Assembly: GCF_058153355.1 (NCBI RefSeq)
Contig: NZ_CM177019.1
Length of the DNA stretch: 64,000 nucleotides
Strand: one strand, 5' to 3'
Shown: in pieces, positions 1-3,000 of the stretch
Layout: each line of letters opens with the position of its first letter
How positions within the stretch are numbered: the stretch's first letter is position 1
Made by a program: the position numbers

Positions 1-3000
1 TCACCGTCGGATTTACTGCTACGTCGCCCTCAGGGAATTAAACCTAAAAAGAAAATCGTCAAAATTAGAGATTCCGGTTTGACACGGAAAGTCATATCAG
101 CGCTGAAATGACATCACTTGATGATGCTGGTGGACGTGCGCAGGTTGTCGGGAGTCGTCTTATCGTCCTGGCAGACCAGCCGAAATATACAGGCGAAGGA
201 ACGGGCATCAAGAAAATCACGGGCGGCGACCCCGTGGAAATAAACCCGAAATATGAGAAGCGTTTTACGGCGGTAATCAGGGCGGTGGTGCTGGCAACCA
301 ATAACAATCCGATGATATTCACCGAACGGGCCGGAGGTGTGGCACGTCGTCGCGTGATTTTCCGTTTCGACAATATCGTCAGTGAGGCCGAAAAAGACAG
401 GGAGCTACCGGAAAAGATTGCGGCTGAAATCCCCGTTATTATCCGCCGCTTGCTGGCGAACTTTGCCGACCCTGAAAAGGCACGGGCTTTACTCATTGAA
501 CAGCGTGACGGTGATGAAGCACTGGCAATAAAGCAACAGACGGATCCGGTTATTGAGTTTTGCCAGTTCCTGAATTTTCTGGAGGAAGCGCGCGGCCTGA
601 TGATGGGCGGTGGTGGTGACTCTTCCAGGTACACGACCAGGAACAGCCTTTACCGAGTCTATCTGGCGTTTATGGCATACGCCGGAAGGAACAAGCCGCT
701 AAATGTGGCTGAGTTCAGCAAAGCTATGAAACCCGCTGCGAAAGTTTACGGGCATGAATATATTACTCGGAAAGTTAATGGGGTTACGCAGACTAACGCA
801 ATAACAACAGACGATTGCGATGCGTTTTTATAATTTTTTGCAAAAGCCCTCTACTTCCTCTACCTGAATGAAATAAACGCATATTATTCAATATGATAAG
901 TTGGTAGAGGGCTATGTAGAAGGCTAATAAAAGCCCTCTACCTCTTCTACCTGATTTTATCAATTCCAGGTAGACAGGTAGAGGGCTGGTAGAAGGGGAT
1001 TAAAAGCCCTCTACCATGCTGAAAGGTGCGCCATTGCTGGCTTTTTGTGGTGCTTGGTAGAAGTGGTAGAGGGGGGGAGGCACAACTCAAAACTTTTTAA
1101 ACGAGGGGGTAAAAACAAAAATGCACACATCAGGAAAACTTAATAATCAGAAGAAACCACATAACCGCACTATTGACCTTACAGAGCACTGGCTGAGGTT
1201 GGCGATAAAAATCATCGATCGCAACACGGGAGAAGGATACGCAAAAGCACATCCCGAACTGATAAGCGCATTTATGACCACGGCGGCGGCAAACTTTGCC
1301 ACGCTGACAGAACGGGAGATTGCCGAAGCGGAACAGGTAACAACCATCAACGTTAAAACCGGAGAGGTGGAATCATGACAGCACAGATATCAGCTTACGG
1401 GCGGCTGGTGGACGACCCGCAGGTAAAACAGACCAGCAAGGGCACACCGATGACGCTGGCGCGTATGGCGGTATCTTTACCATGCAGCCAGGCACAGGAC
1501 GGGCAGGCGACGTTATGGCTGTCGGTCATCGCATTTGGCAAACAGGCCGACTTCCTGGCTAAACATCAGAAAGGCGACCTTATCAGCGTATCCGGCGCAA
1601 TGCAGGTAAGCCAGTGGACAGGCCAGAACGGCGAAACGCGGCAGGGATGGCAGATTATCGCAGACAGCGTAATCAGTGCCAGAACGGCGCGACCGGGCGG
1701 CAAAAAAGGCCAGCAGGGCCAGACTACTGACGCACTGAACAGGGCGAAACAACAGGCGGGCAATGATGATCCGTACGGGGATAACATACCGTTTTAATTC
1801 ACAACAGCGAACAGACTACTTACTGAGGAAAGTATGACAAAGCTGACCATTAACAGAAAACCTAAAGGTATTTATGACACACCGCAAAAAACGATTCAGG
1901 AGGAACTGGAGCAGCAGGATAAAGCCACTCTGGCACATACAGTGATGCCCAATAACCAGAAAGTGCAACCGAAGCTTACAGAAGCAACACCGTGGCAGCA
2001 TATGACCAGACGCCAGAGAAAGAACCGCAGACGTATTAATCGCCTTATTGAGTTATGGCCAGAACTATTCAACCGGGAAGCACCGAAACCATTAAAAAAA
2101 GGGATATTCGACGATCTGATACAGGATATTGCTGTCAGAGAACTGACCTTTGGTCCCGGGGTGCTACGTGCAGCAATAACATCTTATACACAATGCCCTC
2201 GCTATTACCGTGCATTAATGTCCGGTGATGTACGTTACGACATGAAAGGCCGGCCATGTGGCAAGGTAACACCGAAAGAGCAGCGTGACGCAGAAGCACA
2301 ACTAATGGCGTTGCATGCACAGCGCGAATGCCGGCACAGGACAACCAAGAAAGAGAAAAGTGTATGATTCACGACAGCAAAGCGGAAGCACTGGAAGCGC
2401 GTGGCCTGTACCGGAGAGCGGCGGCGCGGTGGGCTGAGGTCATCATGCTGGCGAATGATGACAAGGCACGGGAGCAGGCGGCAAAACGTCGCGCGGAATG
2501 TATCCACAAGGCAGCACGCCCACCAGCAAGGCAGGATAATTTCGGGGAGATGCGCGAAACCATCAGCCGGGCACATGCCGGGATGGGATTACATCAGCCC
2601 AATGGTAAGGCATTCAGGAAATACCCTGGATCGAAAAACTGCAGTCAGTGACGGAGGCCGGGATTTTTCCCGGCTTTTTTGTGCCAGTAAAAAGCCCGCA
2701 GCCAGAAGTGTTGCGGGCTTTGTTTTTCAGGTGATTGAAGTCAATGGGAAGAACGCGATCATCATGCGTTATCGTTTCATGAATTGCAATGATGTAGATC
2801 GTCATTTCAGTTTATGCAATCATAACCATTGTTTTGTTCAGGAGATATGACTATGAGAAAAGCCAGCGTGAAGCCCGTTTTACTCGCTCGTGATCAGATT
2901 GAAGCATTACAGCGCATCCAGGACGAGGAACGCCGCAATTCTCCGCTGGGGATTGCTCCGAGCATTCATGAGGTTGCCCGGCGTTTAATGCAGCGGGCGC

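What the first reader, a model, noticed from the sequence alone, without database searches (positions are those of the whole stretch)
1..833. Primase gene appears split or tightly coupled at an ATGA overlap
The frame entering the window stops at 109-111 exactly over the ATG (108) of the ORF carrying the primase C-terminal signature. P4-family primases are usually one long polypeptide, so this is either a natural two-gene arrangement or a frameshifted primase, which would make the satellite replication-defective.
Basis: inference. Interest (0 to 1): 0.3.

Follow-up and report, generated by a model that had tools for sequence, protein, structure and literature searches.

The report
Primase gene broken by insertion sequence
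The apparent two-part primase is one satellite primase-helicase gene cut in two by a mobile insertion sequence (ISSso6), whose last 98 bases happen to open the window; this is an ordinary gene disruption, not a coupled gene pair or a frameshift.

Summary
The literal observation holds. Frame 1 ends at TGA 109-111, overlapping ATG 108 of a 241-aa ORF with primase C-terminal signatures. The frame entering the window is not primase. Window 1-98 is 100% identical to the last 98 nt of ISSso6, an IS110-family element with IS1111-type architecture, present in up to 14-19 places per genome in E. coli. Primase homology starts abruptly at base 99 (AGC GCT GAA ATG = S338-A-E-M341 of intact 581-582-aa homologues), a few codons after the Walker A motif. 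ATG108 is an internal Met codon and the "ATGA" is just Met-Thr, present in the intact homologues examined. In 572 of 575 matching E. coli complete genomes the break point is uninterrupted. E. coli O121 201805972 shows primase-N | ISSso6 | primase-C at the same nucleotide, annotated as pseudogenes, and two more genomes carry the same junctions. ISSso6 copies share the target GTA^AGCG(C/T)T, which intact primases carry exactly there. Whether the N-terminal half still lies just upstream of the IS could not be checked, because the window starts inside the IS. Already known kind of event; low interest.

The parts
1..98 (+). Right (3') end of insertion sequence ISSso6: the tail of its non-coding region downstream of the transposase gene. 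The rest of the element lies upstream of the window.
   Evidence: 100% identical over 98 nt to L002 6001-6098, the end of a complete 1523-bp ISSso6 copy. The same end is found in 1-19 places per genome on chromosomes and plasmids in unrelated contexts. E. coli primase matches never extend left of base 99. GC is 42% against 51% for the primase part.
1..111 (+). The 'frame entering the window': a spurious open frame, not a gene.
   Evidence: In the complete element this frame opens after a stop at L002 5955 and has at most 51 codons, all in the IS non-coding region plus 13 nt of primase. It is not annotated in the annotated ISSso6 copies examined and has no Pfam hit.
13..38 (+). 3' arm of the basal helix of the predicted structured RNA of the ISSso6 non-coding region (candidate long seekRNA).
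   Evidence: Fold of L002 5834-6098 gives MFE -88 kcal/mol, z = -4.6 against shuffles. The basal helix pairs nt 16-36 with nt 180-205 of the non-coding region, and the latter is window 13-38. This is a prediction only. No Rfam family matches.
83..95 (+). Right subterminal inverted repeat (sTIR) of ISSso6, CACGGAAAGTCAT, followed by the 3-nt terminal extension ATC (96-98).
   Evidence: It is the perfect 13-bp reverse complement of ATGACTTTCCGTG, which starts 7 nt inside the left end (L002 4576 AGGCAGT|ATGACTTTCCGTG). The 7-nt/3-nt extensions match the IS1111-family rule given in PMC11187229.
99..100 (+). Insertion junction. The AG dinucleotide is present both at the left junction (GTA-AG|GCAGT...) and here (...ATC|AG-CGCT), so the exact cut is ambiguous between 98|99 and 100|101.
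   Evidence: Junction sequences of L002 and of independent copies. Intact primases read GTAAG[C/T]GC[T/C] once at this place.
99..833 (+). 3' remnant of the satellite primase-helicase gene: codons 338-581 plus stop. It holds the part of the P-loop NTPase domain after Walker A and the Pox_D5-type C-terminal domain.
   Evidence: BLASTP to the intact 582-aa primase of E. coli ETEC1738 aligns residues 339-582 with 75% identity and no gaps. tblastn with the A34 primase gives 96.8% over residues 334-581, a span that includes four read-through codons from the IS end. TIGR01613 positions 123-267 only, 55 bits against a cutoff of 108.7. Pfam Pox_D5 hit.
108..833 (+).
   Evidence: Gene callers in draft assemblies call exactly this 241-aa product at the contig edge.
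842..1075 (.). Iteron-like repeat array directly downstream of the primase stop, probably the satellite's replication origin (inferred).
   Evidence: At least 10 copies in both orientations of GGTAGAGGGCT / GGTAGAAGG. The region is conserved with the primase in E. coli homologues (matches run to base 1100).

Best explanation
A single-polypeptide primase-helicase gene (D5_N + P-loop NTPase DUF5906 + Pox_D5 C-terminal domain; TIGR01613 'P4-family primase') belongs to an integrated P4-like/PICI-type satellite beside the ETT2 type III secretion cluster. The related satellite of E. coli ETEC1738 occupies the tRNA-Gly site there. This gene has been interrupted by the site-specific insertion sequence ISSso6.

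The window begins 98 nt before the right end of the IS. Primase resumes at base 99, inside codon Ser338, about ten codons after the Walker A motif GxGGSGKS.

ISSso6 is an IS110-family (DEDD, 'RNA-guided') element with IS1111-type architecture. By analogy with ISEc11, ISKpn4 and ISPa11, an RNA from its 3' non-coding region (seekRNA) directs insertion into a short specific sequence. That sequence is here GTA^AGCG(C/T)T, which the primase carries as the codons Val-Ser-Ala.

The insertion separates Walker A from the rest of the NTPase and from the DNA-binding C-terminal domain, so the primase-helicase is inactivated and the satellite most likely cannot replicate autonomously.

Shown: the identity of 1-98 with the ISSso6 end, the exact break point, the intact single-gene state in relatives, the same insertion in other genomes, and the conserved flanks of ISSso6 copies. 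Inferred: RNA guidance for this particular IS, loss of primase function, and presence of the N-terminal half upstream of the IS in this genome.
For: IS identity:
- Window 1-98 is 100% identical to the terminal 98 nt of ISSso6.
- That end occurs in many unrelated genomic places.
- PGAP names the elements 'IS110-like element ISSso6 family transposase' or 'IS110 family RNA-guided transposase'.
- The transposase passes NF033542 (257 bits vs 140) and Pfam DEDD_Tnp_IS110 + Transposase_20.

Break point:
- Primase homology starts at base 99 or 102 in the matches listed, out of 663 matching E. coli records.
- The alignment of window, intact primase and both O121 junctions shows the break at GTA|AGCGCT.

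Intact state in relatives:
- Intact homologues are 581-582-aa single CDSs.
- 119 of the best 120 relatives are 580-585 aa and one is 541 aa.
- 572 of 575 matching genomes are contiguous across the site.

Same insertion elsewhere:
- E. coli O121 201805972 has primase-N pseudogene | ISSso6 | primase-C pseudogene with an identical right junction. VL40 and VL7S7 match across the IS and both junctions.
- The O121 satellite lies at a different locus (next to yejO). Over window 1-877 the two are 91.8% identical, and because the IS part is identical the primase-C part is only about 91% identical, which argues for independent hits.

Target and architecture:
- The independent ISSso6 copies examined have left flank ...GTA(AG) at all seven distinct sites and right flank (AG)CG... 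at all but one site.
- 13-bp perfect sTIR, 7/3-nt extensions and a 265-nt downstream non-coding region match the IS1111 type described in PMC11187229.
- The non-coding region folds with z = -4.6 and contains target look-alikes.

Assemblies:
- Draft assemblies with this satellite break their contigs at this repeat (L005 starts at window 108, L012 at window 77).
Against: - The window starts inside the IS, so the transposase gene, the left IS end and the N-terminal primase half of this genome were not seen. Their presence is inferred from the O121 locus.
- The source genome could not be retrieved.
- seekRNA guidance has not been demonstrated for ISSso6, and no ISSso6 experiment was found in the literature search.
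- The ISSso6 transposase (376 aa) is longer than the 330-350 aa quoted for typical IS1111-family transposases, so the subfamily assignment is not settled.
- Loss of replication is not tested. The C-terminal ORF is free of further lesions and could in principle be translated from Met341.
Confidence: 0.9

Rival explanations
1. ISSso6 did insert into the primase, but the locus was later rearranged. Recombination between ISSso6 copies (inversion, deletion or translocation) means the N-terminal primase half, and perhaps the whole left part of the satellite (integrase, regulators), is no longer adjacent to this IS copy.
For: - The window gives no information left of the IS.
- ISSso6 reaches 14-19 places per genome in some strains, and nested or partial copies exist (L003, L011), so IS-mediated rearrangement is plausible.
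- tblastn finds no primase N-half anywhere in the 64-kb window.
Against: - In the one related locus read in full (E. coli O121 201805972) the insertion is simple, with both halves flanking one IS copy. VL40 and VL7S7 match across the IS and both junctions.
- The right junction is a canonical target junction.
- The remnant ORF and the IS end carry no further damage, which suggests a recent event.
Confidence: 0.15
2. Natural two-gene primase: an upstream gene and the 241-aa ORF are translationally coupled through the ATGA overlap.
For: Only the literal ATGA overlap and an open frame over bases 1-108.
Against: - The upstream frame is IS non-coding DNA, at most 51 codons, unannotated and without family hits.
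- The ATGA is Met341-Thr342 of the single-polypeptide homologues examined.
- 572 of 575 genomes are uninterrupted at this site.
- There is no ribosome-binding site.
Confidence: 0.01
3. Frameshifted primase: a small indel near base 108 shifted the reading frame of an otherwise continuous gene.
For: Two frames meet at 108-111.
Against: - No nucleotide or protein similarity to primase exists left of base 99 in any frame.
- The primase frame (frame 3) itself contains three stop codons within 1-98.
- The discontinuity is a 1.5-kb insertion in the related locus.
Confidence: 0.01
4. The C-terminal fragment (from Met341) is expressed and has a function of its own, for example an origin-binding protein acting on the downstream iterons, so the split is tolerated or useful.
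For: - The ORF is intact.
- It retains the Pox_D5-type C-terminal domain that PGAP calls 'primase-like DNA-binding domain'.
- The iteron array lies just downstream.
Against: - No promoter-like site on the + strand in 1-110. The IS-end TTGACA (79-84) is followed 17 nt later by GCTGAA, a poor -10 hexamer.
- No Shine-Dalgarno sequence.
- PGAP treats the equivalent fragment as a pseudogene.
- The arrangement is rare (3 of 575 matching genomes lack a contiguous site).
Confidence: 0.05

Closest known systems
ISSso6 (IS110 family in ISfinder/PGAP naming; first named from Shigella sonnei)
   Same: Window 1-98 is identical to its right end. The complete copies examined are 1523 bp and have a 376-aa DEDD transposase (NF033542, PF01548 + PF02371).
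   Different: Nothing differs in the part visible. Only the last 98 nt are in the window.
IS1111-family elements with a seekRNA (ISEc11, ISKpn4, ISPa11, IS4321/IS5075; Siddiquee et al. 2024, PMC11187229) and IS110/IS621 bridge-RNA elements
   Same: - Subterminal inverted repeats (13 bp).
- 7-nt left and 3-nt right extensions.
- Long structured non-coding region downstream of tnp.
- One specific short target, with no conventional target-site duplication.
- Target look-alike segments inside the non-coding region.
   Different: - The transposase is 376 aa, against 330-350 aa typical for IS1111-type elements.
- RNA guidance was not tested for ISSso6.
- The target core AGCGCT is palindromic, so top-strand and bottom-strand matches in the RNA cannot be told apart by sequence.
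P4-family primase-helicases (TIGR01613; D5-like SF3 helicases of satellites and PICIs, annotated 'DNA primase family protein')
   Same: Intact homologues have D5_N + DUF5906 (P-loop) + Pox_D5 and pass TIGR01613 (110.4 vs 108.7 bits). The gene sits in an integrase-bearing satellite, followed by iterons.
   Different: - The window copy is only the last 244 codons (55 bits, below the cutoff).
- The family here is 581-585 aa, shorter than P4 alpha (777 aa, from my own knowledge).
- P4 itself was not compared. The best full-length match in the spread sample listed from the phage collection is 43% identical (vB_KppS-Ant).
IS-interrupted pseudogenes of E. coli/Shigella, e.g. the primase of the yejO-adjacent satellite of E. 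coli O121 201805972
   Same: Same IS, same nucleotide position and same orientation. The pieces are annotated as 'incomplete' pseudogenes.
   Different: It is a different satellite at a different chromosomal site. Over window 1-877 the two are 91.8% identical, and because the IS part is identical the primase-C part is only about 91% identical. The insertions are therefore probably independent.

Membership tests
IS110 family / IS1111-type insertion sequence (ISSso6) | DEDD (RuvC-like) transposase with PF01548 + PF02371 / NF033542 | tested here: met
   Tested on the complete copy in L002, not in the window. NF033542 gives 257.5 bits against a cutoff of 140. PF02371 E = 8e-24 and PF01548 E = 3e-11. 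The G--P----SG motif is present as GITPSEYSSG. The window itself holds no transposase sequence.
IS110 family / IS1111-type insertion sequence (ISSso6) | Subterminal inverted repeats of 11-13 bp, with terminal extensions of 7 nt (left) and 3 nt (right) | tested here: met
   Left end AGGCAGT|ATGACTTTCCGTG; right end CACGGAAAGTCAT|ATC, which is window 83-95 and 96-98. The rule comes from PMC11187229.
IS110 family / IS1111-type insertion sequence (ISSso6) | Long non-coding region downstream of tnp that yields a structured guide RNA (seekRNA) | tested here: inconclusive
   A 265-nt downstream non-coding region is present and is predicted to be strongly structured (z = -4.6), with target-like segments. 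There are no RNA data, no Rfam family and no covariation test, because the copies are nearly identical.
IS110 family / IS1111-type insertion sequence (ISSso6) | Insertion into one specific short target in one orientation, without a conventional target-site duplication | tested here: met
   The independent insertions share GTA^AG on the left and CG(C/T)(T) on the right at all but one site. The uninterrupted primase carries GTAAG[C/T]GC[T/C] once. Only the AG is shared between the junctions.
IS110 family / IS1111-type insertion sequence (ISSso6) | Transposase length typical of the IS1111 family (330-350 aa) | tested here: not met
   The transposase is 376 aa, against the range quoted in PMC11187229. 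Family-level (IS110) membership is secure. The IS1111 subfamily label is by architecture only.
P4-family primase (TIGR01613) / D5-like SF3 primase-helicase | Whole-protein score above the curated cutoff of TIGR01613 | tested here: not met
   The window fragment scores 55.2 bits against a cutoff of 108.7 and covers only profile positions 123-267 of 304. The intact homologue from ETEC1738 passes (110.4 bits). The window therefore holds a truncated member, a pseudogene.
P4-family primase (TIGR01613) / D5-like SF3 primase-helicase | D5_N domain and complete P-loop NTPase with Walker A | tested here: not met
   Both are absent from the window. In intact homologues D5_N spans residues 151-281 and DUF5906 spans 314-415, with Walker A GEGGSGKST immediately before the break.
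P4-family primase (TIGR01613) / D5-like SF3 primase-helicase | Pox_D5-type C-terminal domain | tested here: met
   PF03288 scores 24.2 bits against 21.4, at residues 144-232 of the 241-aa ORF.
Translationally coupled gene pair (ATGA overlap) or programmed/mutational frameshift within one gene | Homologous coding sequence of the same gene or operon on both sides of the overlap, with the arrangement conserved in relatives | tested here: not met
   The upstream side is IS non-coding DNA. In relatives the gene is continuous across the break point, and the intact genes examined carry the same ATGA inside one open frame.

The most novel reading that the evidence does not exclude
The ISSso6 guide-specified target (GTA^AGCGCT) coincides with the conserved Val-Ser-Ala codons just after the Walker A motif of this widespread family of satellite primase-helicases. 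ISSso6 would then repeatedly and independently knock out satellite replication genes. It has hit two about 9%-diverged satellites at two different chromosomal loci at the very same nucleotide. This would be a natural example of RNA-guided IS targeting that immobilises another mobile element.
Probability: 0.5. Interest if true: 0.3.

Novelty: already known. Interest (0 to 1): 0.1.

Why it matters
The main value is for annotation. The 241-aa ORF should be labelled as the 3' fragment of an IS-disrupted primase pseudogene. It is not a separate gene, a coupled pair or a frameshift. The first 98 bases should be labelled as the ISSso6 right end.

It also implies that this satellite, integrated beside the ETT2 cluster, is probably a replication-dead remnant. 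As a small by-product, the junction gives a clean uninterrupted-versus-interrupted target pair for ISSso6 (GTA^AGCGCT). That pair could help to define the guide segments of its presumed seekRNA.

Tried and rejected
Attempts to recover the upstream sequence of the source genome failed.
- An exact-protein look-up of the 241-aa ORF and of the neighbouring SSB returned only short draft contigs that break at the IS (L005, L012-L014).
- A scan of the species-representative genome collection for the 25-nt IS end found nothing.
- No complete E. coli genome contains this exact satellite. The best match is 95.4%.

A protein search with an N-terminal primase half carrying the IS read-through tail (…NTVRQYDFP) was meant to find other truncated alleles. 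It listed only primases of 541-585 aa among the best 120. That supports the single-polypeptide norm but gives no count of truncated alleles.

Rfam has no family for the ISSso6 non-coding RNA.

A search for the satellite's right attachment site using the tRNA-Gly 3' end gave only an 11-nt match at 7436-7446, which is not conclusive.

Rejected readings:
- Translational coupling.
- Frameshift.
- A hybrid promoter from the IS-end -35 hexamer driving the fragment. No + strand promoter-like site was found in 1-110, and the hexamer 17 nt after the IS-end TTGACA (GCTGAA) is a poor -10 by inspection of the sequence.
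Full report
**Observation.** The sequence is as described. Frame 1 is open from base 1 and ends at TGA 109-111. ATG 108-110 opens a 241-aa ORF ending at 833. That ORF carries primase C-terminal signatures:
- Pfam Pox_D5 above its cutoff, and a partial DUF5906 hit.
- Positions 123-267 of TIGR01613 'phage/plasmid primase, P4 family'.

**What lies upstream of the ATG.** A megablast of window 1-1100 against 5,426 complete E. coli genomes gave 663 matching records. Every match listed starts at base 99 or 102 and never further left, and each lies under a single 'DNA primase family protein' or 'phage/plasmid primase, P4 family' CDS.

A separate search with bases 1-130 showed that bases 1 to about 104 belong to a multi-copy sequence found in up to 19 places per genome, on chromosomes and plasmids, outside annotated genes. 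In E. coli O121 201805972 the full 1-130 stretch matches at 98.5%, and the annotation there reads as follows:
- DNA primase family protein, pseudogene missing its C-terminus (L002 3556-4575).
- IS110 family RNA-guided transposase (4703-5833).
- Primase-like DNA-binding domain protein, pseudogene missing its N-terminus (6087-6833).

Other copies of the element are annotated 'IS110-like element ISSso6 family transposase'. Window 1-98 is 100% identical to the last 98 nt of this element. No other piece of ISSso6 and no N-terminal primase sequence occurs anywhere in the 64-kb window.

**Exact break point.** I aligned the window, both O121 junctions, an unrelated ISSso6 copy and the intact primase of E. 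coli A34.
- The uninterrupted gene reads ...GGG AAA CAG AAC ACx GTA AG[C/T] GC[T/C] GA[A/G] ATG ACA..., which is ...G K Q N T V S A E M T....
- The left junction is ...ACAGTA|AGGCAGTATGACTTTCCGTG....
- The right junction is ...CACGGAAAGTCATATC|AGCGCTGA....
- An AG dinucleotide is common to both junctions, so the cut is ambiguous by two bases.
- With the convention of Siddiquee et al. (7-nt left and 3-nt right extensions outside the subterminal repeats; PMC11187229) the IS ends at window base 98 and the primase resumes at 99.
- The break falls in codon Ser338 of a 581-582-aa protein. The Walker A motif (GEGGSGKST) lies a few codons upstream of it, in the preceding sequence (...GEGGSGKSTFTHIASLLAGKQNTV|SAEM...).

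ATG108 is therefore the internal Met341. The 'ATGA' is simply the Met-Thr codon pair and is also present in the intact genes examined. The window fragment aligns without gaps to residues 339-582 of the ETEC1738 primase (75% identity). It matches A34 residues 334-581 at 96.8%, a span that includes four read-through codons from the IS end.

**The frame entering the window.** In the complete element this frame opens only at L002 5956. It has at most 51 codons and lies inside the non-coding region downstream of the transposase stop.
- It has no family hit and is not annotated in the ISSso6 copies examined.
- Thirty-six consecutive sense codons have a chance probability of about 0.18.
- The true primase frame (frame 3) has three stops within 1-98.

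There is no frameshift and no upstream partner gene.

**Norm among relatives.** Intact homologues are single CDSs of 581-582 aa with D5_N (about 151-281), DUF5906 P-loop NTPase (about 314-415) and Pox_D5 (about 515-572).
- 119 of the 120 best relatives in a 5.8-billion-protein search are 580-585 aa and the other is 541 aa.
- A 601-bp probe centred on the break point is contiguous in 572 of 575 matching E. coli complete genomes.
- The only two-piece loci found are the ISSso6-interrupted ones (O121 201805972, VL40, VL7S7).

**How the insertion got there.** ISSso6 has the following features:
- A DEDD transposase (NF033542 257 bits; PF01548 + PF02371).
- A perfect 13-bp subterminal inverted repeat, ATGACTTTCCGTG. 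Its right copy is window 83-95.
- A short (about 127-nt) upstream and a long (265-nt) downstream non-coding region.

This is the IS1111-type architecture, in which an RNA from the downstream non-coding region (seekRNA) selects the target (PMC11187229).

Flanks of independent ISSso6 copies support a specific target. The copies lie in SopA, beside nhaA and in other contexts.
- Left flanks all end in GTA(AG). Right flanks begin (AG)CG, usually CGCT, at all but one site (L009/L010, (AG)TGAAT).
- The target is thus about GTA^AGCG(C/T)T, which the primase supplies as Val-Ser-Ala.

The non-coding region is predicted to fold much better than shuffled controls (-88 kcal/mol, z = -4.6). Window 13-38 forms the 3' arm of its basal helix. 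It also contains target look-alikes, GTTAG·CGCTTGG and ATCAG·CGTGATT. In two genomes a second ISSso6 end is joined exactly at those internal sites.

RNA guidance for ISSso6 itself remains an inference. Its 376-aa transposase is longer than the 330-350 aa quoted for classical IS1111 members. The papers that mention ISSso6 appeared from their titles and abstracts to be surveys rather than experiments, and Rfam has no matching family.

**Independent events.** The O121 satellite lies next to yejO. The window's satellite lies next to the ETT2 type III secretion cluster, and the related satellite of ETEC1738 occupies the tRNA-Gly site there. Over window 1-877 the window and O121 are 91.8% identical. 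Because the IS end is identical, the primase remnants are only about 91% identical, and the first differences appear 8 nt after the junction. Two separate hits on the same target are the most economical reading.

**Consequences.** The insertion separates D5_N and Walker A from the rest of the NTPase and from the C-terminal DNA-binding domain.
- No + strand promoter-like site was found in 1-110.
- The IS-end TTGACA (79-84), which by analogy forms a junction promoter only in the excised circle, is followed here by a poor -10 hexamer (sequence).
- There is no Shine-Dalgarno sequence before ATG108.

The primase-helicase is therefore almost certainly non-functional and the satellite probably cannot replicate. 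Directly downstream (842-1075) lies a dense iteron-like array, probably the origin that this protein would have served.

**Limits.** The window starts inside the IS. The transposase gene, the left end and the primase N-half of this genome were not seen. The source genome could not be retrieved. Exact-protein look-ups return only draft contigs that stop at the IS (L005 at window 108, L012 at window 77), and a scan of representative genomes found no copy of the IS end. A later IS-mediated rearrangement that removed the left half therefore remains possible (about 15%).

**Verdict.** This is an IS-disrupted primase pseudogene. Interest is low.

Noticed in passing
window 842-1075: Dense array of at least 10 copies, in both orientations, of GGTAGAGGGCT / GGTAGAAGG immediately after the primase stop codon. 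It looks like an iteron-type replication origin of the satellite and is conserved with the gene in E. coli homologues.
   Followed up: partly
L002 5834-6098 (ISSso6 3' non-coding region; window 1-98 is its tail): The region is predicted to be a strongly structured RNA (z = -4.6) with no Rfam family. It contains target look-alike segments GTTAG·CGCTTGG (L002 5891) and ATCAG·CGTGATT (L002 5991), which are candidate seekRNA guide segments.
   Followed up: partly
L003 3100 and L011 1825: In two E. coli genomes an ISSso6 right end is joined exactly at the internal look-alike sites of another ISSso6 non-coding region. These are nested or self-targeted partial copies.
   Followed up: no
window 55937-55945 (+): A perfect, unoccupied copy of the ISSso6 target 9-mer GTAAGCGCT. 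A near-match GTAAGCG[CT]T lies on the minus strand at 49608.
   Followed up: no
E. coli hits H98-H105: IS110-family elements about 95% identical to ISSso6 match it only up to about L002 5913. They share the transposase but diverge in the 3' part of the non-coding region, so they may be natural guide variants with other targets.
   Followed up: no
window about 7400-25000 versus 25001-50000: The ETT2 type III secretion cluster next to the satellite is only about 95-97% identical to complete E. coli genomes. The following 25 kb (araE, ygeH, lysA, yqeG) is 99.2% identical, so the ETT2 allele is unusually divergent.
   Followed up: no
window 1121-7200: The rest of the satellite's right arm appears intact: an 85-aa protein, SSB, ProQ/FinO-family, PerC-family, a DUF2213/Pa193_gp24-like protein and a SocA_Panacea-domain protein. 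It is found 100% identical only in a few draft assemblies (GCA_015332025.1, SRR8656992).
   Followed up: partly
L002 2157-2820: The related O121 satellite carries two tandem modules of isrK plus C4 antisense RNA (Rfam RF01394, RF01695) upstream of its primase, among Icd-like genes. This is a P1/P4-type antisense immunity region.
   Followed up: no
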